Of a stretch of 64,000 bases of DNA, positions 21,887 through 63,967 are shown in pieces. The number at the start of each line of letters is the position of its first letter. Position 1 is the stretch's first letter. The notes beneath the pieces were generated by a model. The model did not search any database. It was not told where the DNA came from and saw nothing but the letters and a program-made list of their open reading frames with translations. Made by a program: the position numbers and the translations under genes. The stretch spans positions 1 through 64,000 of the forward strand of contig JARLHJ010000012.1 in NCBI GenBank assembly GCA_031292305.1, written 5' to 3'. The stretch comes from Candidatus Babeliales bacterium. Its GTDB lineage: Bacteria; Babelota; Babeliae; Babelales; JABDEC01.

Positions 21887-23131
21887 ATGTCATATAATGA
21901 TCCCAGAAACAAAACAGATAAAAAAAGTGGATACAAGCCTAAATCTAATGATGCTAGATCATCAGGTAGACCATCAAGAGGAAATTCAGGTTCACGACCT
22001 GGCAATTCTGGTAGATCAGCACGACCTATTCAAACATTTGACCCATCAGCAGTTATTAAAAAAGTAGAAGAACAAGTAATAGCGCCAGTTTATGTACCTA
22101 AACATAAATTTGCAGACTTTGCTATAGAAGAACAACTTAAAAAAAATATTATAGATCGTGGTTATATTAACCCTACCCCTATTCAAGATGAAGCAATTCC
22201 TCTTTTGTTAGAAGGTAATGATATAATTGCTACTGCCAACACTGGTACAGGTAAAACAGCAGCATTCTTGATTCCTTTAGTTAATAATCTATTAACTAAA
22301 AAGATCTACAAAGTGCTTATTATTACCCCTACAAGAGAATTAGCAGCACAAATTCAAGATGAATTATCGATGTTTATGAATAAAACAGGCTTTAATTCAG
22401 TATTATGCATTGGTGGTTTAAGCTTAGGTCCCCAAATTCAGCAGTTAAAGCGAAATCCTGAATTTATAATAGGTACACCAGGTAGATTAAAAGATTTAGA
22501 AGAACAAAGATTTCTTAACTTTAACAGTTTTGATGCCATAGTATTAGATGAAGTAGATACAATGCTTGATATGGGCTTTATTAGAGATATTAAATATATT
22601 ATTTCTAAATTGCCTTCAAAGCGCCATTCATTATTCTTCTCTGCTACAATTGATGCTAGTTTAAAAGAAGTTATGAACAGCTTTTTACGCAAGCCTATTT
22701 CTGTAAGTGTAAAAACAAGGCAAACTGCTGAAAATGTTAACCAAGAGATAATAAAAGTTGGTGACAAAAATAAGTTGGAAATGTTACATGACCTGTTAAT
22801 TAAACCAGAATTTAAAAAAGTAATTATATTTTCGCGTACTAAACGCGCTACTGACAGATTATCTAAAGTTTTAAAAGAACGTGGTTTTGAAGTTGCTTCA
22901 ATTCATGGTGATAAAACTCAGGCGCAAAGAAAAAAAGCTTTAGCATTCTTTAAAGATGATAAAGTAAAAATTCTTTTAGCGACCGACGTTGTGGCCCGTG
23001 GTATTGATATTGACGATGTTTCACATGTTATCAACTTTGATTTACCTGCGACACATGAAGATTATATACACAGAATTGGTAGAACTGGCCGTGCTAATAA
23101 AATCGGACAGGCTATTACTTTTATTGATTAA
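21887..23131 (+). CDS. DEAD-box ATP-dependent RNA helicase with N-terminal Arg/Ser/Gly-rich extension
   Basis: Motifs seen: Q-motif region, TGTGKTAAF (Walker A), DEVD (DEAD variant), SAT, and HRIGRTGR (motif VI). Confidence 0.9.
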   Translation: MSYNDPRNKTDKKSGYKPKSNDARSSGRPSRGNSGSRPGNSGRSARPIQTFDPSAVIKKVEEQVIAPVYVPKHKFADFAIEEQLKKNIIDRGYINPTPIQDEAIPLLLEGNDIIATANTGTGKTAAFLIPLVNNLLTKKIYKVLIITPTRELAAQIQDELSMFMNKTGFNSVLCIGGLSLGPQIQQLKRNPEFIIGTPGRLKDLEEQRFLNFNSFDAIVLDEVDTMLDMGFIRDIKYIISKLPSKRHSLFFSATIDASLKEVMNSFLRKPISVSVKTRQTAENVNQEIIKVGDKNKLEMLHDLLIKPEFKKVIIFSRTKRATDRLSKVLKERGFEVASIHGDKTQAQRKKALAFFKDDKVKILLATDVVARGIDIDDVSHVINFDLPATHEDYIHRIGRTGRANKIGQAITFID

Positions 23132-23146
23132 TAATTAAGATATTAA

Positions 23147-23185
23147 AAAAACGAGCTAATCCATCAAAGATTAGCTCGTTTTTTA
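23147..23185. terminator. Bidirectional rho-independent terminator (ACGAGCTAATC-catcaaa-GATTAGCTCGT, flanked by A- and T-runs)
   Basis: Sits between the convergent DEAD-box gene and the Cys-rich gene. Confidence 0.65.
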
Positions 23186-23187
23186 AT

Positions 23188-24099
23188 TTATAATTCGATA
23201 AGTTCATTAGCTTCTTCAAAACCAGGATTAATAGGTTCTACTATAGCAGGTCCATGCTCTACAGATGGATTGTAACCAGCCACACATTGATTATTTGTGC
23301 AAGCATAATTTGGACAACCTACCATTCCCGCAGGACACAATTTTTCTTTGCAATCCGCATCAGTTTTACATTGTGATGTTGACGCGTTTTAAGTTCTTTC
23401 CCAAGGTCTATTGCAAGTCCCTAAGTGTCCATTATTAGGTTTAGTTAAATCGCAACTATAACCACCATCAGTTACACAATTAGCGTCTGAATCACATGCA
23501 TCATTTGCAAACCTAACTGCAGGCATTCCACCTACAATGATTGGTTTAGGAGTTGCAAGTTTTTTGGGTTGAGCAACCTGTTTTTTTACAACCGCTTTTG
23601 CAGCTATAGGTTTATTATCAAGTTCTTCTAAAACAAATGAATTATCATGTGTTTGTATTATAGCATATGTTCCATGTAAATTAATTGAATGCGGAAGTTT
23701 TACTGTAGAGATCTCAGGTGATGAATCTTGTATTGGAGACATTGCAAGTTTGGTAATTTCTTCTTCTTTATTTACGTATTTTTTCATTATAATTTTAGAA
23801 ATTGATTTGGGGTGGTTGCAAGTAAATGCACCGCGCGCCACTTGAGCTACACGTTTTCTCATTACCAAGCCTGCATAACTAATTGGAAATTTAAATGTGT
23901 TTTTATCTGCTATATCATGCGCTTGGACAATATATTTGCCACTATGTTGAGCGTTTGATTCATCTGTACAAGTAAAATCGACCTGTGCTTTATCGTTTGT
24001 CATATTTATAATTTTAAAGTTTGAAACAGCTTCACTTGCTCTTAAAGCTGAACATATTAGACTTACAATAATTATTAATATAGTTTTGTTCTTTATCAT
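23188..24099 (-). pseudogene. Cys-rich secreted protein gene with an in-frame TAA (pseudogene, recoding or sequence error); full frame about 303 codons
   Basis: After the TAA the same frame continues …NASTSQCKTDADCKEKLCPAGMVGCPNYACTNNQCVAGYNPSVEHGPAIVEPINPGFEEANELIEL* to 23188. This extends the Cys-rich pattern begun before the stop (…CDSDANCVTDGGYSCDLTKPNNGHLGTCNRPWERT*). Confidence 0.45.
23389..24099 (-). CDS. Secreted Cys-containing hypothetical protein (236 aa), probably interrupted; see pseudogene feature
   Basis: Signal peptide. The ORF ends at TAA (23389-23391), but the same frame stays open for a further 66 codons. Confidence 0.5.
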   Translation of the reverse strand: MIKNKTILIIIVSLICSALRASEAVSNFKIINMTNDKAQVDFTCTDESNAQHSGKYIVQAHDIADKNTFKFPISYAGLVMRKRVAQVARGAFTCNHPKSISKIIMKKYVNKEEEITKLAMSPIQDSSPEISTVKLPHSINLHGTYAIIQTHDNSFVLEELDNKPIAAKAVVKKQVAQPKKLATPKPIIVGGMPAVRFANDACDSDANCVTDGGYSCDLTKPNNGHLGTCNRPWERT

Positions 24100-24281: not shown

Positions 24282-24770
24282 ATGAAAAGTTTAATGCATC
24301 ACTCAAAAATAAGTTTACCTGAAAAAGACAGAATTGAGCTTATAAATATTTTAAATAAATCATTAGCTTCAACAGCTGATTTATACGCGCAATTAAAGCA
24401 GGCTCATTGGAATGTAAAAGGAAGAGAATTTATTGAATTACATAAGTTATTTGATGAAATTGCAGAATTAGTAGAAGAGCAAGTAGATATTATAGCAGAA
24501 CGTATCACTAGTTTAGGTGGTACTGCTTTAGGTACAATTCAACAAGCTACAACTAATACAGAGCTAAGATTATATCCAGTTGATATTTTTAAAGCAGAAG
24601 ACCACATAGAACATTTAACGCATAATATTGCAATTTTAGGCGAGCTTACTCGTACTAATATTAAACGTTCTGAAGATTTAGGCGATATGGGTACTAACGA
24701 TTTATATATAGATCTAGTAAGATTGTTAGACAAGAGCTTATGGTTTATTGAGGCTCATGTTCAAAAGTAA
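24282..24770 (+). CDS. dps: Dps (DNA-binding ferritin-like protein)
   Basis: 162 aa. …LYAQLKQAHWNVKGREFIELHKLFDEIAELVEEQVDIIAERITSLGG… is the ferritin-like di-iron fold signature of Dps. RBS AAAGGAGAA. Confidence 0.9.
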   Translation: MKSLMHHSKISLPEKDRIELINILNKSLASTADLYAQLKQAHWNVKGREFIELHKLFDEIAELVEEQVDIIAERITSLGGTALGTIQQATTNTELRLYPVDIFKAEDHIEHLTHNIAILGELTRTNIKRSEDLGDMGTNDLYIDLVRLLDKSLWFIEAHVQK

Positions 24771-24936: not shown

Positions 24937-25395
24937 ATGAAAAAATTAATGAGTTTTATGCTTATTCTTTTAGTAAGCACAACATTGGTAAATGCAGAAT
25001 TGAACAAGGTTACTAAAGCAGTAGCAACCTTAGTTCCATTAAACGTGGCAACTACTTTTCTAGGTTATAAATGTATTCAATGGGGAAATGCAAATAAATA
25101 TTTAGCAGAAGATGTTAAACAAAATCCTCAAAATAATCTGGATTATATAAGAGATTTTTGTGCTAATTATAAAGAAATTATAAGTACTGGCAAGCACGTA
25201 ATTACAAAACACGATTCAGCTTTATATTTAAAGTTTATTGATGTTAAAAACAAACCTGATGATTTAAAAGAGTTTGGTTACTATATAAGCACTTTGATGA
25301 AAGAAAAATCAAATAATTTAGTTGCAGTTGGCGTGATTCTTCCTTTGTTAGTTTTAGCTAGCTCATCTGTTTATGTTTATAATTTAAGCAAATAA
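24937..25395 (+). CDS. Hypothetical secreted protein (152 aa)
   Basis: Signal peptide MKKLMSFMLILLVSTTLVNA. Terminator at 25419..25460 (TAGACCCAGATT…AATCTGGGTCTA + T-run). Confidence 0.4.
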   Translation: MKKLMSFMLILLVSTTLVNAELNKVTKAVATLVPLNVATTFLGYKCIQWGNANKYLAEDVKQNPQNNLDYIRDFCANYKEIISTGKHVITKHDSALYLKFIDVKNKPDDLKEFGYYISTLMKEKSNNLVAVGVILPLLVLASSSVYVYNLSK

Positions 25396-25550
25396 GTTAC
25401 CTCTTTTTCAGAATTTAATAGACCCAGATTTGTTTTTTCAAATCTGGGTCTATATTTTTTAAATAAATTATTAAACCCAAAAGCATATCTATTGCTTATC
25501 CCTCATTTATTTTGATACTATTAGTATTAAATAATTAAGAAGGGTTTAAA

Positions 25551-25898
25551 ATGAATTCTACTACGCCAAGGCTACGAAGAACAGGAAAATTAATAATTTT
25601 AATTTTCGCATTAATTGCGTTTAATACAAATATTGAAGCTAATAGAGGCTATGCAAGCGGTAATTTCAACCGTGGATATAGTAATAGAAATAATAGAAAT
25701 CAGCGTTGGTCAAATAACCCTTACGGATGGGGAAATAGAAACCGTTGGAACTCAAACTATTGGAACAATAATTATAGACCATATCCTATTTTTAATACAT
25801 GGCCATATGATGAATATTCTTATGTCTATGATGATTATTATGATGATTGTTATTACTACCCACAAAGCTGTCAGTTTGGCTTCTTTTGGGGGTATTGA
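25551..25898 (+). CDS. Small secreted Asn/Arg/Trp/Tyr-rich low-complexity protein (115 aa)
   Basis: Signal peptide, then NRGY/NRN/WN repeats (…NRGYSNRNNRNQRWSNNPYGWGNRNRWNSNYWNNNYRPY…) and a YDDYYDDCYYY tail. Confidence 0.45.
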   Translation: MNSTTPRLRRTGKLIILIFALIAFNTNIEANRGYASGNFNRGYSNRNNRNQRWSNNPYGWGNRNRWNSNYWNNNYRPYPIFNTWPYDEYSYVYDDYYDDCYYYPQSCQFGFFWGY

Positions 25899-25902
25899 TT
25901 AG

Positions 25903-26481
25903 ATGGATATTGATTTAATAATAAAAGTTTCATTAACAATATTTGTTATTATATTGTTTCCTGTATATAAAAAAAATTATGGCTTAAGAAATTTTTTATG
26001 GTTATCTGATATTGGATTATTTCTAACGTTGTTTGCTTTATGGTTTAAATCGCCATTATTAATAAGTATTGCAGTCGTTGGAATTTTGCCCTTAGAGATA
26101 ATATGGAACATAGATTTTTTTGTTAAATTACTTAGTAGTTACAGCATTTGTGGGTTATCCAACTACATGTTTGATAGTAAATATAGCTATGCATTAAGAA
26201 GTTTGTCATTGTTTCATGTCTTTATGCCTCTAATTTGGGTTTATTATCTAAGTAAATGGGGTTATGATATTGGTGCATTTCAATATTGGCTCTTTCTCTT
26301 TTGGATTATACTTACCGTATGTTATTTATTTACAAGCCCAAAAGAGAATATTAATTGGGTTTTTATGCCTGCAAAGTCTAATTGGGATAAAATATCACCT
26401 TTGCAATGGCTACTTATTCTTATGGTTGTGATACCAGTTTTCATATCTTTACCAATGCATTTTATCCTAAAACACCTGTAA
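25903..26481 (+). CDS. Hypothetical polytopic membrane protein (192 aa)
   Basis: About six hydrophobic helices. The start lies 5 nt after the previous stop. Confidence 0.45.
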   Translation: MDIDLIIKVSLTIFVIILFPVYKKNYGLRNFLWLSDIGLFLTLFALWFKSPLLISIAVVGILPLEIIWNIDFFVKLLSSYSICGLSNYMFDSKYSYALRSLSLFHVFMPLIWVYYLSKWGYDIGAFQYWLFLFWIILTVCYLFTSPKENINWVFMPAKSNWDKISPLQWLLILMVVIPVFISLPMHFILKHL

Positions 26482-26619
26482 ATTCATTGCTTGCTGAAAC
26501 CTTTAGGGGTATTTATGCCTTAAATAAGGCAAATTCATTTATTGGAAACTATTGCAATTAGAAACTTTCTTGATTTATACTATTAATAAAGTGAAGTTTA
26601 TTCAAAAAAGGAGGCTCAA

Positions 26620-27681
26620 ATGAAAAAGTTTTTAATATTAATGCTAGTTTTAGCATTAGGTTCAACAGTTAATTTAGATTTAATTGCTAGAGGCGGCGGT
26701 GGCGGTGGTCATGGCGGCGGTGGTCGCGGTGGCGGTGGTATGCGTGGAGGCGGTGGTATGCGTGGTGGCGGTATGCGCGGTGGCGCTAGAGGAGGTGCAC
26801 GTGGCGGCGCAGCTCGTGGTAGAGGTGCTGCAGGTCGTGGAGCTGCAAATCGTGGTGGAGCAAATCGTACAAGAAATGCTAATGCTAACCATAATAGAAA
26901 TGCGAATGCCAATCGTAACAGAAACGCAAATAGAAATCGTAATGGCAACAGAAACAGAAATGGTAATAGAAATAGAAATGGCAATAGAGGTCGTGGTGGT
27001 CGTGGCAACTGGAATCATGGTGGCAATTGGAACCGTGGCGGAAACTGGGGCGGCTGGGGTTATGGCGGCTTAGGCTTAGGATTAGGCTTATTAGGCGGTG
27101 GTCTATTAGGTTACGGTCTATTAGGCGGTTTTGGTCCATACGGTGGCTACGGTTATGGTGGCGATTCAACAACATATGTTGAAGGCGATACTACTTATGT
27201 AGATAGTGGCTATGTAGATAGTGACTATGTTGATAATGGATATTCAGACAATAGTAATAATTATACAATTGTTTCTGATGATAATTCGGGCTCTGCAAAT
27301 GGTGCTTCTGCTGAAAATTCAGAAATGGAAGCAGCAAAGCAAAAAATATTAGCAGATCCAATTAAAAGAGAATTTACTCAAACCTTAGATAATCTAAGTA
27401 AAGAAAATCCAGCAGCTTATGATGCATTCCAAAATAAGCTTAAAGATGATTCTGCATTTAGAGATAAGCTTGAAAGACAGCTAAAAACAAATAAGGGAAT
27501 TAAGAAAGTTACTGCAAGCTTAAAGCGTGCAGATTACCAAGAGTCATTAATAAATGCAGGTAAAGCAGATTCAATATTAAACTCGGGTATTTTAGATGAT
27601 TCTGAAAATATTCAAGCAGTTAAGTTTCCATCAAATGAAGAAACTGTAATAATTGTGCCTCAAGGTACAGTAGCTGGTTAA
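26620..27681 (+). CDS. Secreted Gly/Arg (RGG-type) and Asn/Arg-repeat low-complexity protein (353 aa)
   Basis: RBS AAAGGAGG. Signal peptide. Then GGGGRGGGGMRGGGGMRGG…, (NRNRNG)n repeats, GNWNHGGNWNRGGNW, GYG repeats, and a C-terminal roughly 130-aa non-repetitive region. The ORFs listed on the other frames and strand here are repeat artefacts. Confidence 0.55.
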   Translation: MKKFLILMLVLALGSTVNLDLIARGGGGGGHGGGGRGGGGMRGGGGMRGGGMRGGARGGARGGAARGRGAAGRGAANRGGANRTRNANANHNRNANANRNRNANRNRNGNRNRNGNRNRNGNRGRGGRGNWNHGGNWNRGGNWGGWGYGGLGLGLGLLGGGLLGYGLLGGFGPYGGYGYGGDSTTYVEGDTTYVDSGYVDSDYVDNGYSDNSNNYTIVSDDNSGSANGASAENSEMEAAKQKILADPIKREFTQTLDNLSKENPAAYDAFQNKLKDDSAFRDKLERQLKTNKGIKKVTASLKRADYQESLINAGKADSILNSGILDDSENIQAVKFPSNEETVIIVPQGTVAG

Positions 27682-27763
27682 ATAAAAATTAGTTCTCCTG
27701 GTGTATAAACCAGGAGAACTAAAGTAAATGTGTATAACTGTATATTTTAAAAAGGAGAATGAA

Positions 27764-27973
27764 ATGGAAAATATAAAAATAGTTGATAACATTGTTTTAT
27801 TATTGTTAATTATTGGTGCATTAAACTGGGGTCTAGTTGCTTTCTTAGATTTCAACTTAGTAGCTCGCTTATTAGGTGAAGGTACTGTATTTGCTCGTGT
27901 TGCATATGCATTAGTTGCTGCAGCAGGAGTTTACGCAGCTACTTGGTTTGTAAGAGATCAAGTTTCACAATAA
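27764..27973 (+). CDS. DUF378-family small membrane protein
   Basis: MENIKIVDNIVLLLLIIGALNWGLVAFLDFNLVARLLG… matches the DUF378 GALNWGL signature. RBS AAAGGAGAA 7 nt upstream of this ATG. The track ORF starts earlier at 27728. Terminator at 27995..28029. Confidence 0.7.
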   Translation: MENIKIVDNIVLLLLIIGALNWGLVAFLDFNLVARLLGEGTVFARVAYALVAAAGVYAATWFVRDQVSQ

Positions 27974-33105: not shown

Positions 33106-33327
33106 TTATCTTTTTTTACGTAACATTGGTAAACCAGTGCGTTCATTTTCTGTTACTTCATAACCTTCTGGTAATTTATCTAATGCGAATTCTTTAGTAA
33201 CTTCACCAGCAAAATAATAAATTCTTTGTTTGCGGCCGCCAGAAAGTTCTACTTCTTTTGAATGTAGATTGTAATCTTTTCCACTTTTCTTTGATTTAAC
33301 TGTAAAAGCCATGATAATACCTTTCAA
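33106..33327 (-). CDS. Small hypothetical protein (about 68-73 aa)
   Basis: ORF with a basic C-terminus. No family recognised. Confidence 0.3.
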   Translation of the reverse strand: MKGIIMAFTVKSKKSGKDYNLHSKEVELSGGRKQRIYYFAGEVTKEFALDKLPEGYEVTENERTGLPMLRKKR

Positions 33328-56974: not shown

Positions 56975-57620
56975 ATGGGCTAAGTATTGGTTGTAAAGCT
57001 AAAAGTACAGGTTCTACGAAATTTTTGTAATCGTTTGAATTTTTTAATCCCGCTTCTAAAGCAATTGCAGGTGCTTTAATTCCAACCAAGGGTTTAAAGG
57101 GAATGCCTAATAAGTATTTAAAATCAAATTGATTATTTTTTTCTAATATTTGTTTCATTTTATTTGTGTAATCTAATGTTTTATTAACATTAATTAAATG
57201 TGCATTATTATAATTTATAAAACTAATATTAGATGGTAATTGCATATAAAAGGGTTCATTAAGGTAATGGTATAAATATAATTTTGGTCTTACGTCAGTT
57301 TCTTTATAAAAATGAATGCTTAAATAAAAATCTACATCTAATCTGTTTGCAAAATTAGCATTCTGTAAAAATTCTAAAGTTTCGCCAGGTACACGTGTTA
57401 ATATTACACGTACATTTTGGTAGTTTGCTTCAATGCTCTTTTTTAGCTCTTGTGCAAATTGTAGAGTTATACCACGCTCAAAGCTATCATTTAATGTGCG
57501 TCCTGCATCTTTAGCATCACCTGCTGGGTCTAGCATTATTGTAAATGTTTTAGGTTGATAATAATCAAAGCTAAATAGGGGAAGGAATATAAGAAAAATT
57601 AAAAGTTTTTTTATCTGCAT
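56949..57620 (-). CDS. Amidase_3-like (N-acetylmuramoyl-L-alanine amidase fold) secreted protein with a substituted first metal ligand
   Basis: Signal peptide. …TIMLDPAGDAKDAGR… aligns with the amidase_3 motif …IDAGHGGxDPGA…, with His replaced by Asp. …ERGITLQFA…, …VILTR… and …DFYLSIHF… align with the Glu, LTR and SIHA(D) segments. Confidence 0.45.
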   Translation of the reverse strand: MQIKKLLIFLIFLPLFSFDYYQPKTFTIMLDPAGDAKDAGRTLNDSFERGITLQFAQELKKSIEANYQNVRVILTRVPGETLEFLQNANFANRLDVDFYLSIHFYKETDVRPKLYLYHYLNEPFYMQLPSNISFINYNNAHLINVNKTLDYTNKMKQILEKNNQFDFKYLLGIPFKPLVGIKAPAIALEAGLKNSNDYKNFVEPVLLALQPILSPYVPSRLYE

Positions 57621-59809
57621 ACTAAATCTGTTGTTAAAAATTCTTTAAGAAACGTTTTGCGTTTAACGCTTTTGTTGTTTTTAATAGCCATAGCCATAGC
57701 TTTAACCTGTCCTATAAATATACACAATTTTTTTGCTCTTGTAATTGCAGTATATATTAAATTTCTTTGTAGCAATGCAAAATGCTGTGTAAATATAGGG
57801 ATTATAACAGCCTGGAATTCAGATCCTTGGCTTTTATGGATAGAAATAGCATAAGCCAATGTAATTTCATCTAATTCGTCAAAATCGTATTCAATTTCGC
57901 GTTCATAATATTTAATAAGAAGTTTTTTATCTTCAGTATTTATATTTTCTACGTTGCCAATATCGCCATTAAAAACTAATTTCTCATAGTTATTTTTGAT
58001 TTGCATTACGCGATCACCAATTTTATAAGTATAACCAAAATTAGAAACTTGTGGTCCTTCAGTTGGGGGATTTAAAATTGATTGTAATTGTATATTTAAG
58101 TTTTGTGTTCCAACAATTCCTTTATTCATAGGAACTAGCGTCATAGCTTGTGATGGTAGTATATGAAATTGTGCTAAAGTCTTGGCCATTATGCCTTTTA
58201 AATGATCTATTGCTTTTAATGGGTCTTCTTCTTTTATAAAGAAAAAATCTTTTTTAGTATCCGGTAAAAATGTAGTTGGAAATTCGCCTTTATTTATTCT
58301 ATGCGCGTTTAAAATAATTAAACTATTTTTTGCTTGTCTAAAAATTTGTACTAATTTAATGCAAGTTATTTTATTACTTTGTATTAAATCATTTAAAAAG
58401 TTGCCAGCACCTACTGCAGGTAATTGGTCTACATCACCTATTAAAATTAAATGTGCATTTAGTGGAATCGCTTTTAAAATAGAATTAGCCAAAAAAATAT
58501 CAATCATCGATGCTTCATCAATAATTAAGAAATCTAAGCTTAAGCTATTTTTTTCATTATGTGCAAAACCCATAGTCTTAAAATCAAATTCTAGCAATCT
58601 ATGAATTGTTAAAGCAAACCTTCCAGTGCTTTCCATCATACGCTTGGTTGCTCTTCCAGTTGGTGCTGCTAATTTATATTTAACTTTTTGTTCATCTAAA
58701 GTATTTAATAATTTTTTTATTAACGTTGTTTTACCTGTTCCAGGCCCACCTGTAATTATAGTTACTTTATTTCGCATGCAAGCTAGTATGCCTGCTTTTT
58801 GATCTTCGTTTAATTCTACGCCACTTGTGTCATTGTCTAAGCTTTGCGAAATTGCATTCATATCAAATCTATTTCCCTGATCCGCTTGGGATATATCTGC
58901 GGCGTGATAGGATAATAAATTCTGTATTTTTGTAGCTACATTTTTTTCTGAATGATAATATTTGCTTAATGTAACATAATGCTTATCTAGGTGAGTTAAC
59001 AATTTAATCTTATCTTCTTCATATAATTGGTGCATAGCCAATTTAAGTAAAGCTGCGTTTTCCGTTTGTTCTAATTCAAGCAGCATACAAGATTTATCTT
59101 TAAGTTCTTGCACTTCTACATATAGATGGCCATTGCCAACTTCAGAGGTGATAGCAAAAGTAATACCGGATTTAATACGTTTTACAGAATTTCTTTCAAT
59201 TCCCATCTTAAGTGCAATCTGATCAGCAGTTTTAAATCCGACACCCCAAATTTCATCAGCTATTCTATAAGGGTTTTCGGTCATCACCGCAATAGAATTT
59301 TGTTCATATTTTTTGTATATTTTAGTTGCATATGATGTTGATATTCCACGTTCTTGCAAGAATATCATAACATTAGAAATCTCACGTTGAGATTTAAAAG
59401 ATTCAATTATTTGTTCAACACGTCTTTGGCCTATTCCGCCAACTTCTTTTAGTCTGTCAGGCTCATTTTCTATAATTTCTAAGACAGATTGTCCAAAATG
59501 ATTAACCAGTCTTTCTGCATATTTTGGGCCTATGCCTTTAATTAAACCAGAACCCAGATATTTTTTAATTCCTAAGATACTTGTCGGAACAACATTAATA
59601 CATTGGGCGACTTCAAATTGTCGCCCAAATTTAGGATGAAAAATCCAATTTCCAGAAAGTAAAACTTCAGTTCCTGGTTGTAAGTTTGGAATGTAGCCTT
59701 TAGCTGTAATAAATTCATCAGTTTTAACTTGAATGTTAAAAATAACAAATCCATTATCATTATTTTGAAATAAAGTTTTTTCTACAGATCCGCGAAGTTC
59801 TACATTCAT
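57611..59809 (-). CDS. recD2: RecD2-type ATP-dependent 5'-3' DNA helicase (RecD-like/TraA family)
   Basis: N-terminal OB/HhH region. Walker A …ITGGPGTGKTT… and SF1 motifs (…LILIGDVDQLP…). C-terminal UvrD-like and SH3-like domain. 732 aa. Confidence 0.85.
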   Translation of the reverse strand: MNVELRGSVEKTLFQNNDNGFVIFNIQVKTDEFITAKGYIPNLQPGTEVLLSGNWIFHPKFGRQFEVAQCINVVPTSILGIKKYLGSGLIKGIGPKYAERLVNHFGQSVLEIIENEPDRLKEVGGIGQRRVEQIIESFKSQREISNVMIFLQERGISTSYATKIYKKYEQNSIAVMTENPYRIADEIWGVGFKTADQIALKMGIERNSVKRIKSGITFAITSEVGNGHLYVEVQELKDKSCMLLELEQTENAALLKLAMHQLYEEDKIKLLTHLDKHYVTLSKYYHSEKNVATKIQNLLSYHAADISQADQGNRFDMNAISQSLDNDTSGVELNEDQKAGILACMRNKVTIITGGPGTGKTTLIKKLLNTLDEQKVKYKLAAPTGRATKRMMESTGRFALTIHRLLEFDFKTMGFAHNEKNSLSLDFLIIDEASMIDIFLANSILKAIPLNAHLILIGDVDQLPAVGAGNFLNDLIQSNKITCIKLVQIFRQAKNSLIILNAHRINKGEFPTTFLPDTKKDFFFIKEEDPLKAIDHLKGIMAKTLAQFHILPSQAMTLVPMNKGIVGTQNLNIQLQSILNPPTEGPQVSNFGYTYKIGDRVMQIKNNYEKLVFNGDIGNVENINTEDKKLLIKYYEREIEYDFDELDEITLAYAISIHKSQGSEFQAVIIPIFTQHFALLQRNLIYTAITRAKKLCIFIGQVKAMAMAIKNNKSVKRKTFLKEFLTTDLVCR

Positions 59810-59815
59810 GTGATA

Positions 59816-60484
59816 TTATTTGCTATACTTTAATTTAAATTGTGCAAAAGCTTTTGGGCAGCTAAAAATTAAATCCCCTAAAAACATATTGACATGATTT
59901 AAAAATATATCAAATTCTTTCAAGCTTTTTACTTTAGTTGCAAACACTTCTTCTTCTTTTCCTAAAGGGGTGTTAATCCATTCAAAACATAAGCTTTTTT
60001 TAATTTTTCTTTTGTTAAATGATTGCTGTATCAAGTCAACCACTAAAGACTTTGTCCATGCAATTCGTTCAATAAATTCTTGAGTAGTATCTAAAAATTC
60101 TTTTTTTACAGCTTCTAAGGCAGTATGAATATCTTTAGATTTTGCAGCATTGGGTTCTTTATTCAATTCTTCTTCGAATTTAACTAAAGCGCCCATATCA
60201 TATCTTTTCCCATCAAAAAGATAATTGCCAACTCTTTGTTTGGTTTTTAGATCTAATTCTCCATATATCATATCTTTTATTTTTGATCTAACTAGGATAA
60301 TTTGCTTGATTGCAGTCGCATCAAGGGCATTAGTAATACCATCTAAACCTTGAATTTCACGGCCTATTAGTTTTACATAAGAATCGGGTTTTTTAGGTGC
60401 ATCAGCCAGTATAGGTAGTGATAATAATAACATGACAAAAATCAACGCTTGTTTCATGAATGCTCCTTTTATTAGTACATACAA
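59816..60484 (-). CDS. Hypothetical secreted protein (222 aa)
   Basis: Signal peptide (…MKQALIFVMLLLSLPILA…). No recognisable domain. Confidence 0.4.
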   Translation of the reverse strand: MYVLIKGAFMKQALIFVMLLLSLPILADAPKKPDSYVKLIGREIQGLDGITNALDATAIKQIILVRSKIKDMIYGELDLKTKQRVGNYLFDGKRYDMGALVKFEEELNKEPNAAKSKDIHTALEAVKKEFLDTTQEFIERIAWTKSLVVDLIQQSFNKRKIKKSLCFEWINTPLGKEEEVFATKVKSLKEFDIFLNHVNMFLGDLIFSCPKAFAQFKLKYSK

Positions 60485-62140: not shown

Positions 62141-62301
62141 AATTTTCTTATATTAATTAAGGTTAATTTTATTAGGTAACACTATTGTAGCTTAATTTTT
62201 TCATATTTCAAATTAGCCCTAATTTTTAAATAATTAATATTTTTCTTGTAAAAAAGCTTTTAATTAGGCTAAAATAAGACTTAAGATTTAATAATCCTGT
62301 T

Positions 62302-62568
62302 ATGGAAAGGATTTTTATGGATATTGATGGGATTTTTGTAGTAAGAGCAGCGGCATTTTTAGGTGCAGCTTTTGTTATGGCTATTGGTAGTGTGGGTCCA
62401 GCTTTAGGTCAGGGTATGATTGGAAAGCAATCTTGCGAAAGTATTGGCAAGTACCCAGAAAGTTCAAGCAAAGTGCGAATAGCTATGATGATAGCATTAG
62501 CAATGGTAGAATCTTCAGCTGTTTTTTGTTTTTTAATAGCGTTGTTATTGATATTAACCGTTAAATGA
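62302..62568 (+). CDS. atpE: ATP synthase F0 subunit c
   Basis: Two-helix hairpin with a Gly-rich helix 1 (…FLGAAFVMAIGSVGPALGQG…) and helix 2 with the conserved acidic residue (…IAMMIALAMVESSAVF…). The true start may be the second Met (MDIDG…). Confidence 0.8.
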   Translation: MERIFMDIDGIFVVRAAAFLGAAFVMAIGSVGPALGQGMIGKQSCESIGKYPESSSKVRIAMMIALAMVESSAVFCFLIALLLILTVK

Positions 62569-62569
62569 C

Positions 62570-62938
62570 ATGACGATTAATTTTACAATAATTATACAAG
62601 CTATTCATTTTTTTTTAGCTTATTTAATTATAACAAGGTTTTTTATAAAGCCTGCGCTCGATATTATTGTACTGCAAGAAAAGCAGGACCGAGAATTATT
62701 GAGGCAATTAGATTTGTATACTAAAAAATATGAGGAAAAAAATAAAAATAAGCTGGATTTATGGAAAGAAAGTTTAATTAAATTTTCTTTTTATAAATCT
62801 GATATAGATAAAACCAAAAATAAAATTCAAGTAAATTGGGAAGTTCCCAAAGTTTGCGAGCCATCAGATTTTTTAATCAATTCATTAAAAAAAGAAACTT
62901 TAAGTTTTTTAAAGGATAAAATAAGTCATGTTCAATAA
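62570..62938 (+). CDS. ATP synthase F0 subunit b-type (b')
   Basis: Single N-terminal TM followed by a charged helical stalk. It is immediately downstream of atpE and overlaps the next b-type gene by 11 nt. Confidence 0.5.
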   Translation: MTINFTIIIQAIHFFLAYLIITRFFIKPALDIIVLQEKQDRELLRQLDLYTKKYEEKNKNKLDLWKESLIKFSFYKSDIDKTKNKIQVNWEVPKVCEPSDFLINSLKKETLSFLKDKISHVQ

Positions 62939-63422
62939 TATGAGTTATTTGTCTATTTTTTTTAGGTTATTTAATTTTGCAATTATTATGGGTATTTTTT
63001 ACTATATTTTTAAGAAATATATTAAAGAAGGCATAATGAAACAAATTAATGATCGTATCGAATATTTAAAAAATATTAAGGATGAGCAAATAGCACTTAT
63101 AGAAAATGCAAAACAACTTGATATAGATATAAACCAGCAGAATAAACTTACTCAAGATTTATTATATAAATTAGATAGATGGAAATCTGTAATTCAAACG
63201 GAACAAGAAGATAAATTAAAAAAACTTGATTCTATAAAAGTTGATATTCAAAATAAACAAGCAATTAAAAATAATCTTTTATCGCAAAAAATTGTTTATA
63301 GCCATGTGATACCTCAAATTATAGAAGATAATAAAATTGAAATATTAAAAGAATTTTCAGATAATAAAGAGGCTGTTAGATATCAAAAAGATATTATTGC
63401 ATTTATAAAGAAAAGCCTATGA
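62928..63422 (+). CDS. atpF: ATP synthase F0 subunit b
   Basis: N-terminal TM (…FNFAIIMGIFYYIF…), then a long amphipathic helix. It overlaps atpH by 4 nt (ATGA). Confidence 0.6.
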   Translation: MFNNMSYLSIFFRLFNFAIIMGIFYYIFKKYIKEGIMKQINDRIEYLKNIKDEQIALIENAKQLDIDINQQNKLTQDLLYKLDRWKSVIQTEQEDKLKKLDSIKVDIQNKQAIKNNLLSQKIVYSHVIPQIIEDNKIEILKEFSDNKEAVRYQKDIIAFIKKSL

Positions 63423-63967
63423 ATATTAAAGATTCAATCATTGCAAAAAGGTATGCAGTAGCATATTTGAATTTATCTTTAGAAAAGTTGGATAATGAAG
63501 ACTTATTAAAAATTCGTGGAGCCTATGATTTTTTATTAAATAACAGGCAAGCCTTTTTTTTATTAACTTTGCCAAATATATCTTTATCTGATAAAACATA
63601 TTTAATAGATGTTTTTTTAAAAAAATTTAATTTATCTATTTATTTAAAAGATTTATTTTTATTATTAGTAGAGCAAAATAGAATTTATCTTGTAAAAGAT
63701 GTTTTGAAGGCAATTATAACCATTTATCAAGTAAGAAGAAATATTATGATATTTGATATATCAAGTTCTGATTCTTTAGATAAAAATGATATAGATGTTA
63801 TTTCAAAATTTTTGTATAAAAATACAAAGAATGAAATTTTACCGCTTTATAAGATAGATAAAAGTCTTATAGCAGGTATAAAGTTGCAAAGCGGATCTTT
63901 TTTATGGGAATATTCTATTAAAAAACAATTGGCCAGCACAAAAAAATTATTATATAAATTAAGGTAA
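63419..63967 (+). CDS. atpH: ATP synthase F1 delta subunit (OSCP)
   Basis: The N-terminal …IAKRYAVAYLNL… pattern resembles delta (…ARPYAKALF…). Operon position after b. 182 aa. Confidence 0.6.
   Translation: MNIKDSIIAKRYAVAYLNLSLEKLDNEDLLKIRGAYDFLLNNRQAFFLLTLPNISLSDKTYLIDVFLKKFNLSIYLKDLFLLLVEQNRIYLVKDVLKAIITIYQVRRNIMIFDISSSDSLDKNDIDVISKFLYKNTKNEILPLYKIDKSLIAGIKLQSGSFLWEYSIKKQLASTKKLLYKLR

What the first reader, a model, noticed from the sequence alone, without database searches (positions are those of the whole stretch)
23188..24099. Cys-rich secreted-protein gene interrupted by a single in-frame TAA, with 66 further Cys-rich codons in frame
The minus-strand ORF ends …GTCNRPWERT-TAA. The next codons in the same frame read NASTSQCKTDADCKEKLCPAGMVGCPNYACTNNQCVAGYNPSVEHGPAIVEPINPGFEEANELIEL*, continuing the Cys spacing and ending exactly at the shared bidirectional terminator. 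This points to a recent nonsense mutation (incipient pseudogene), a sequencing error, or, less likely, stop-codon readthrough. Recent gene decay fits a host-adapted genome. The C-terminal module alone resembles small disulfide-rich knottin or EGF-like effector domains.
Basis: seen in the sequence. Interest (0 to 1): 0.55.

Follow-up and report, generated by a model that had tools for sequence, protein, structure and literature searches.

The report
Secreted-protein gene cut by one stop
A single TAA stop codon cuts the last cysteine-rich module off a secreted protein gene in an uncultured Babeliales bacterium; this is an ordinary truncation (or a base-calling or strain artefact) that sits at a natural domain boundary.

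Summary
The minus-strand ORF 23389-24099 (236 aa, signal-peptide-like N-terminus) ends in TAA. The same frame stays open for 66 more codons, to a second TAA at 23188-23190, three bases from a 16-bp terminator hairpin. Chance gives such an open stretch about 0.5% of the time. The 198 nt have gene-like codon usage in that frame only, and 39% GC against 26% for spacers. They encode a 6-Cys module resembling repeats in a Binatia protein. In a DPANN archaeal protein, a module-1-like and a module-2-like unit run on without a stop. So the two pieces were once one 303-codon gene.

TAA is the normal stop here (44 of 57 long ORFs), and no RNA structure follows it, so recoding is unlikely.

The only homologue of module 1, a 79-aa secreted protein from another AT-rich metagenome contig, ends naturally one residue from the same point (RPWEK-stop versus RPWERT-stop). 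The TAA therefore sits at a domain boundary. The 236-aa product probably still folds, so this looks like domain loss rather than gene death.

No orthologue, independent assembly or reads were available. A real mutation cannot be separated from a consensus or strain artefact. NCBI annotates two genes (236 and 45 aa). Interest is low.

The parts
23389..24099 (-). Upstream ORF of 236 aa including its TAA stop (NCBI P4L22_01680, hypothetical protein). It has a signal-peptide-like N-terminus, an orphan N-terminal region of about 165 aa, a Lys/Pro-rich linker, and the 4-Cys module 1.
   Evidence: Searches give the ORF. One search gives a 100% match to the NCBI Babeliales MAG protein. There are no Pfam or NCBIfam hits. 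The AF2 model is poor, pLDDT 42.7.
24028..24099 (-). Signal-peptide-like N-terminus (MIKNKTILIIIVSLICSALRASEA). The cleavage site is approximate.
   Evidence: Read directly from the sequence: a basic N-region, a hydrophobic core, then small residues. This is inferred; no predictor was run.
23392..23538 (-). Linker IVGGMPAVR plus the 4-Cys module 1 (ACDSDANCVTDGGYSC...GTCNRPWERT), residues 188-236.
   Evidence: It is 49% identical to P0003 across the aligned region, with 28 invariant columns. It also resembles L003 residues 882-910 (shuffle test 2 of 2000).
23389..23391 (-). The interrupting TAA (context ACT TAA AAC), at the boundary between module 1 and module 2.
   Evidence: P0003 ends one residue earlier in the alignment.
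23191..23388 (-). 66 in-frame sense codons: the 6-Cys module 2 (Cys core 23284-23370) plus an acidic tail of about 30 residues. It has no start codon or signal peptide of its own.
   Evidence: Coding statistics are and chance estimates. It is 35-50% identical to four repeats of the Binatia protein in L002 (shuffle test 0 of 2000). An L003 alignment runs across the stop.
23188..23190 (-). Second TAA, the presumed original stop of the 303-codon gene.
23146..23184 (.). 16-bp hairpin with T-runs on both strands. It is a bidirectional intrinsic terminator shared with the convergent DEAD-box helicase gene.
   Evidence: plus strand. The minus-strand reading shows cgagctaatc...gattagctcg followed by ttttttt.
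23188..23325 (-). 45-aa ORF annotated by NCBI as a separate gene (P4L22_01675 = P0002). It is most likely an annotation artefact.
   Evidence: It starts after the third Cys of module 2, would carry only 3 Cys, and has no signal peptide. Coding signal and homology extend 21 codons upstream of its ATG.

Best explanation
The locus was a single gene of 303 codons. It encoded a Sec-exported, disulfide-rich modular protein: a signal peptide, an orphan N-terminal region, the 4-Cys module 1, the 6-Cys module 2 and an acidic tail. Its stop lay directly in front of the terminator. One base substitution turned a sense codon in the short linker between the two modules into TAA; AAA, CAA, GAA, TTA, TCA and TAT/TAC are each one step away.

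Transcription still runs to the old terminator. Translation now stops at codon 237 and yields a 236-aa secreted protein that lacks module 2. This truncated protein ends where a natural one-module relative (P0003) ends, and it keeps an even number of cysteines. It is therefore probably still folded and functional, so the event is loss of a terminal domain rather than loss of the gene. The 198 nt behind the stop are a very young untranslated relic.

Shown: the in-frame stop, the coding character and domain identity of the downstream stretch, the position of the terminator, and the homologue's end point. Inferred: that the change is a real mutation in the organism, that it is recent, that the protein is secreted, and that the short product works.
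For: The 66 open codons have chance probability 0.004-0.006. Codon-usage log-odds is +0.38 in this frame only, the same as real genes. GC by codon position is 0.53/0.46/0.18, and the region is 39% GC against 26% for intergenic DNA.

Module 2 matches four repeats of a Binatia Cys-rich protein at pairwise E 4e-8 to 3e-4. Its part outside the search seed scores 67 against 33 +/- 5 for shuffles, 0 of 2000. In the DPANN protein of L003, a module-1-like unit is followed without a stop by a module-2-like unit, and the alignment runs through the window's TAA (40% over 72 residues; module 1 alone 2 of 2000 shuffles).

The second stop lies 3 nt from the terminator, while the first lies 204 nt from it. 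In L001 the homologue's stop is followed within about 25 nt by its terminator hairpin. The downstream piece has no plausible start or signal peptide.

P0003 ends at RPWEK-stop against RPWERT-stop here. The mature 236-aa product has 6 Cys. The conserved genes in the window that were checked are intact, which argues for a good consensus.
Against: No reads, independent assembly or orthologue could be found, so the TAA itself is unverified. If nonsense mutations struck at random, only about 2% of positions would fall within two codons of the homologue's natural end. Selection against truncations inside a domain would have to explain this coincidence. The relic shows no decay at all: every Cys is present and there is no second stop. 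That fits a very recent event, but it equally fits a sequence that is still translated or was never interrupted.
Confidence: 0.55

Rival explanations
1. The gene is intact (303 codons) in the organism or in most of the population. The TAA would then be a consensus or base-calling error of the metagenome-assembled genome, or a minority-strain allele that entered the consensus.
For: The window comes from a MAG. The downstream module is completely undecayed and in frame up to the terminator. A continuous two-module arrangement exists in L003. Only one base needs to differ.
Against: Substitution errors in a consensus are rare (general knowledge). None of the conserved genes checked in the 64 kb shows a frameshift or an internal stop. 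An error landing one codon from the natural end of the homologue P0003 would be as much a coincidence as a random mutation, and no selection could explain it.
Confidence: 0.25
2. The stop is used on purpose to make two isoforms. Most ribosomes stop at the TAA and make the 236-aa form. A fraction read through and add module 2, as in the phage Q-beta A1 protein.
For: This reading explains both odd facts together: the stop sits exactly at a natural protein end, and the downstream module is perfectly preserved, in frame, and ends at the terminator.
Against: TAA is the standard stop of this genome, used by 44 of 57 long ORFs, and no other gene has a coding-like in-frame extension. UAA is the least leaky bacterial stop, and UAA-A is not a known leaky context (general knowledge). 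The 131 nt around and after the stop fold no better than shuffles, z = -1.05. No suppressor tRNA is in the window. No orthologues exist to show that the stop is conserved.
Confidence: 0.05
3. There are two independent genes, as NCBI annotates them: a 236-aa protein and a separate 45-aa (or 50-aa, TTG-started) peptide made from the downstream ORF.
For: PGAP called P4L22_01675, the 45-aa ORF starting at ATG 23325. An in-frame TTG lies at 23340.
Against: Both starts lie inside the 6-Cys module, after Cys 2 or Cys 3 of a unit whose six Cys all align with the Binatia repeats. The product would have an odd or incomplete set of Cys and no signal peptide. Homology continues across the 21 codons upstream of the ATG. 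The only purine-rich stretch (GGGA) directly abuts the ATG.
Confidence: 0.05
4. The TAA is the old, native stop. The downstream module is the remnant of a neighbouring small secreted Cys-rich gene, whose promoter and signal peptide were removed by a deletion that happened to leave it in frame.
For: Small stand-alone secreted proteins made of one such module exist: P0003 and the 111-aa ORF at L003 6470-6805. The homologue's end point matches the TAA.
Against: The deletion would have to end exactly at the stop codon and leave the frame intact, a 1-in-3 chance on top of the exact junction. No repeat or scar is visible at the junction. One point mutation is more parsimonious.
Confidence: 0.05

Closest known systems
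Nonsense-truncated genes and young pseudogenes in bacterial genomes, well documented in host-restricted bacteria such as Rickettsia and Mycobacterium leprae (general knowledge)
   Same: A single in-frame stop sits in an otherwise continuous frame. The downstream part still looks coding. The original stop and terminator are still in place.
   Different: The stop falls at a domain boundary, so the product is probably a working shorter protein. No other decaying gene is seen in the window. The stop itself is not verified in reads.
P0003, a 79-aa protein on Logan contig SRR21360224_522 (L001 377-616)
   Same: It shares the linker and the 4-Cys module ([IV]VGGxPxxR...ACxSxxNCxxDGGYSC...KP...GTCxRPWE). 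It also has a signal-peptide-like N-terminus, comes from an AT-rich genome (26% GC), and ends at the same place.
   Different: It has no N-terminal 165-aa region and no module 2. Its stop is followed directly by a terminator and a convergent endonuclease III gene.
Cys-rich repeat proteins of a Binatia MAG (L002, 513 aa) and a Diapherotrites (DPANN) MAG (L003, 986 aa), and the curated model TIGR04201 Myxo_Cys_RPT
   Same: Module 2 shares the pattern C-x-[TD]-D-x-D-C ... C-x-x-G-x3-C-P-x3-C-x-N-x-Q-C with four Binatia repeats. L003 has a module-1-like and a module-2-like unit in tandem.
   Different: Those are large multi-repeat proteins of unrelated phyla. The window module lacks the extra Cys pair of the Binatia repeat. 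It scores only 11 bits against TIGR04201, whose cut-off is 25. The similarity may reflect a common small disulfide scaffold rather than close descent.
Programmed stop-codon readthrough, such as the phage Q-beta coat/A1 protein (general knowledge)
   Same: A short form ends at a stop, and an in-frame extension encodes an extra domain.
   Different: The Q-beta stop is a leaky UGA. Here the stop is UAA, with no stimulatory structure and no comparative support.

Membership tests
Gene interrupted by a nonsense codon (truncation or young pseudogene) | An in-frame stop with the same frame open well beyond chance on the far side | tested here: met
   66 codons are open, with P = 0.004-0.006.
Gene interrupted by a nonsense codon (truncation or young pseudogene) | The downstream stretch has coding statistics in that frame only and encodes a recognisable protein module | tested here: met
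   Log-odds is +0.38, against -0.08 to -1.20 in the other frames. It matches the Binatia repeats.
Gene interrupted by a nonsense codon (truncation or young pseudogene) | Intact homologues read through the equivalent position | tested here: inconclusive
   Only a distant DPANN protein has the two module types joined. The one clear homologue of module 1 ends at the stop. No orthologue was found in any collection.
Gene interrupted by a nonsense codon (truncation or young pseudogene) | The stop codon is present in the organism's DNA (reads or an independent assembly) | not testable with these tools
   Neither the protein nor its neighbours are on record in other assemblies.
Programmed stop-codon readthrough | A leaky stop or context, or a stimulatory RNA structure downstream | tested here: not met
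   The stop is UAA-A, and TAA ends 44 of 57 long ORFs. The fold z-score is -1.05.
Programmed stop-codon readthrough | The stop and the downstream frame are conserved together in relatives | not testable with these tools
   No orthologues are available.
TIGR04201 Myxo_Cys_RPT (Cys-rich repeat) | A score at or above the curated cut-off of 25 bits | tested here: not met
   Module 2 scores 11.1 bits, E 0.34, over residues 5-14 only. L003 scores 18.5 bits.
   Pfam gives only sub-threshold noise: CPL1-like 14.5 bits and Nodulin_late 13.8 bits. The PDB sequence search gave nothing. The best Foldseek hit has E 0.31 (a scorpion toxin), on a model of pLDDT 62.
Module-1 family (P0003-like secreted 4-Cys module) | Alignment over the whole module with all four Cys and the DGGYSC and RPWE motifs | tested here: met
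   E = 3.3e-4 against 1.84 billion representatives, at 56% identity, with 28 invariant columns.

The most novel reading that the evidence does not exclude
The TAA is a deliberate decision point. A Babeliales bacterium would make a short secreted protein ending after module 1 and, by low-level UAA readthrough, a longer isoform carrying an extra 6-Cys module. This is the only reading under which both oddities are expected rather than coincidental: the stop lies at a natural protein end, and the downstream module is intact.
Probability: 0.05. Interest if true: 0.6.

Novelty: new member of a known kind. Interest (0 to 1): 0.15.

Why it matters
Mostly this matters for annotation. The public record splits the locus into two 'hypothetical proteins' of 236 and 45 aa. 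It is better described as one 303-codon gene interrupted by a stop, and the 45-aa call is spurious. The locus is also a clean small example of how a modular secreted protein can lose a terminal domain through one base change at a linker. It defines a tiny new family, a secreted 4-Cys module shared with one other AT-rich metagenomic bacterium. It shows nothing unexpected about mechanism unless the readthrough reading proves true.

Tried and rejected
**Orthologue comparison.**
- The word-index search, the exhaustive HMMER search of 1.84 billion representatives and two profile searches found only the window's own two annotated ORFs and P0003.
- The scan of GTDB species genomes and both metagenome scans gave no close relative.

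**Independent assemblies.** Exact look-ups of P0001, P0002, the Dps-like neighbour and the helicase neighbour all returned 'not on record'.

**TAA recoding.** Rejected: 44 of 57 long ORFs end in TAA, with short extensions.

**Paralogues in the window.** None were found by tblastn or by motif scan.

**Internal duplication of module 1 into module 2.** Not supported (BLASTP E = 3).

**Structure.**
- The single-sequence models were too poor to use, with pLDDT 42.7 and 62.4.
- The Foldseek search against the PDB was not significant.

**A second interrupted gene.** The same-frame pair 59816-60484 / 57611-59809 is two complete genes, since RecD2 starts with its own OB domain. Other adjacent ORFs gave no sign of being split.

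**Plus-strand genes under the region.** The two plus-strand ORFs that lie within the region (40 and 57 aa) fall in frames that score poorly, -0.08 to -0.88.

**Literature.** No paper combines Babeliales with cysteine-rich proteins.

Full report
**Source and setting.** The window is 29.5% GC and densely coding. The upstream ORF is 100% identical to NCBI 'MAG: hypothetical protein P4L22_01680 [Candidatus Babeliales bacterium]'. The gene lies on the minus strand. On one side is a convergent DEAD-box helicase gene (21887-23131, Pfam DEAD + Helicase_C). On the other is a divergent Dps/ferritin-like gene (24282-24770).

**Observation.** The minus-strand ORF 23389-24099 encodes 236 aa and ends ...GTCNRPWERT-TAA. 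The same frame continues for 66 sense codons, NASTSQCKTDADCKEKLCPAGMVGCPNYACTNNQCVAGYNPSVEHGPAIVEPINPGFEEANELIEL, to TAA at 23188-23190. A 16-bp hairpin with T-runs on both sides occupies 23146-23184. The second stop is therefore 3 nt from the terminator, and the first is 204 nt from it.

**Is it more than chance?**
- A stop-free run of 66 codons has probability 0.006 from shuffles of the region itself and 0.004 from window composition.
- The 198 nt score +0.38 bits per codon on the window's codon usage in this frame, and -0.08 to -1.20 in the other five.
- Real genes give +0.35 +/- 0.12 for windows of this size, and off-frame windows give -1.09 +/- 0.41.
- GC by codon position is 0.53/0.46/0.18, against 0.40/0.32/0.19 for genes.
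- The stretch is 39% GC, while intergenic DNA averages 26%.
- Among 57 long ORFs, the only other in-frame extensions over 50 codons run into neighbouring genes.
- The other open stretches in 'intergenic' DNA appear, from their translations, to be small genes with their own starts.

**Not a code change.** TAA ends 44 of 57 long ORFs. The window carries only tRNA-Lys and tRNA-Glu. The RNA around and after the stop folds no better than shuffles (z = -1.05).

**What the protein is.** The N-terminus, MIKNKTILIIIVSLICSALRASEA, looks like a Sec signal peptide; this is read from the sequence and is inferred.
- Residues from about 25 to 185 have no homologue anywhere and no family hit. The AF2 model is unusable, with pLDDT 42.7.
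- Residues 188-236 hold a linker and the 4-Cys module 1, with spacing C5C7C12C.
- The 66 codons after the stop hold the 6-Cys module 2, with spacing C5C4C6C4C4C, followed by an acidic tail.
- Both modules open with C-x-[ST]-D-A-[DN]-C. This motif occurs only at these two places in the six-frame translation of the window. The modules do not otherwise align.

**Relatives of module 1.** The exhaustive search of 1.84 billion representatives returned three proteins: the ORF itself, P0002 and P0003. P0002 is a 45-aa ORF inside the downstream stretch, which NCBI annotates as P4L22_01675.

P0003 is 79 aa: a signal peptide, a linker (VVGGNPSGR) and the same 4-Cys module. It ends ...GTCTRPWEK-stop. It sits on a 16-kb Logan contig of 26% GC. 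Its stop is followed within about 25 nt by a terminator hairpin and a convergent endonuclease III gene. In the alignment it has 28 invariant columns, and its end is one residue short of the window's RPWERT-stop.

**Relatives of module 2.** The scan of GTDB species genomes found two loci whose matches span the stop, at query residues 182-275 and 202-273.
- In L002 (a Binatia MAG), a 513-aa Cys-rich protein has four repeats 40-49% identical to module 2, with pairwise E from 4e-8 to 3e-4.
- The locus was picked through the exact word QCKTDADC, so I tested the remainder of the module. It scores 67 against 33 +/- 5 for shuffles, 0 of 2000.
- In L003 (a Diapherotrites archaeon), a 986-aa protein reads ...CESDSDCSDQDGGLCLLTTVNNIEKKVCNYYAEGCINLLLQCKTDADCPAGYTCITNKCIP... 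Here a module-1-like unit is followed without a stop by a module-2-like unit.
- The alignment runs through the window's TAA at 40% identity over 72 residues. Module 1 alone against this protein gives 2 of 2000 shuffles.
- The two metagenome loci, L004 and L005, give a tblastn match with the same query span and identity.
- No curated family fits. TIGR04201 Myxo_Cys_RPT scores 11 bits for module 2 and 18.5 bits for L003, below the cut-off of 25. Pfam gives only noise. The PDB sequence search is empty. The fold search on a model of pLDDT 62 is not significant.

**Interpretation.** The downstream 198 nt are real coding sequence for a real domain. They are in the frame of the upstream ORF, have no start or signal peptide of their own, and end at the terminator. 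The simplest history is one 303-codon gene and one base change.

The new fact is the location of the stop. It sits between two modules, one residue from where a natural one-module relative ends. The mature 236-aa product keeps six Cys. The short protein is therefore probably viable, and I read the event as loss of a terminal module rather than death of the gene. A random nonsense mutation would land this close to the boundary only about 2% of the time. Selection against truncations inside a domain is the likely filter, though that is an inference.

**What cannot be settled.** No reads, no second assembly and no orthologue were reachable. A true mutation (my estimate 0.55) cannot be separated from a consensus or strain artefact (0.25). 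The complete lack of decay fits both. About 5% of single-base changes in the stretch would create a stop, so the open frame alone tolerates only modest neutral divergence.

Programmed readthrough explains both oddities at once, but it has no positive support and an unfavourable stop codon (0.05). The two-gene annotation (0.05) and a deletion-fusion origin (0.05) are less parsimonious.

**Verdict.**
- The event is domain loss rather than an incipient pseudogene.
- The knottin or EGF-like label has no support.
- The window shows no other evidence of wider gene decay.

This is an ordinary event and is mainly of interest for annotation.

Noticed in passing
window 23188-23325 (-): NCBI annotates a separate 45-aa gene (P4L22_01675) inside the downstream stretch. 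It starts in the middle of the 6-Cys module and is most likely spurious. The locus is not flagged as a pseudogene.
   Followed up: yes
window 24937-27681 (+): There is a run of orphan ORFs, at least three with signal-peptide-like N-termini and two of odd composition. They are 24937-25395 (152 aa), 25551-25898 (115 aa, rich in N/R/W/Y), 25903-26481 (192 aa, hydrophobic) and 26620-27681 (353 aa, with Gly/Arg and NRNGNRN repeats). None has a Pfam hit.
   Followed up: partly
window 57611-60484 (-): The 222-aa ORF 59816-60484 and the RecD2-like helicase 57611-59809 lie in the same frame, separated only by TAA plus two codons. RecD2 is complete from its own OB_YrrC domain, so these are two genes and not a second interrupted one.
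   Followed up: yes
L003 6470-6805 (+): In the Diapherotrites MAG, a 111-aa ORF lies just downstream of the 986-aa Cys-rich protein. Its signal peptide is followed directly by CKADADC... It gives a weak Nodulin_late hit (E 0.0025, below the cut-off).
   Followed up: no
L001 377-616 (+): P0003 is a 79-aa stand-alone secreted 4-Cys protein on a 26% GC contig, next to endonuclease III, a sigma-54 activator, a XerC/D-like recombinase and PBP2. The host taxon was not determined.
   Followed up: partly
window 62278-62565 (+), 27728-27970 (+), 33109-33327 (-): These are short ORFs with gene-like codon usage in stretches I had treated as intergenic. One looks like an ATP synthase c-subunit-type membrane protein ahead of the ORFs at 62570-63967. 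None was checked against family models.
   Followed up: no
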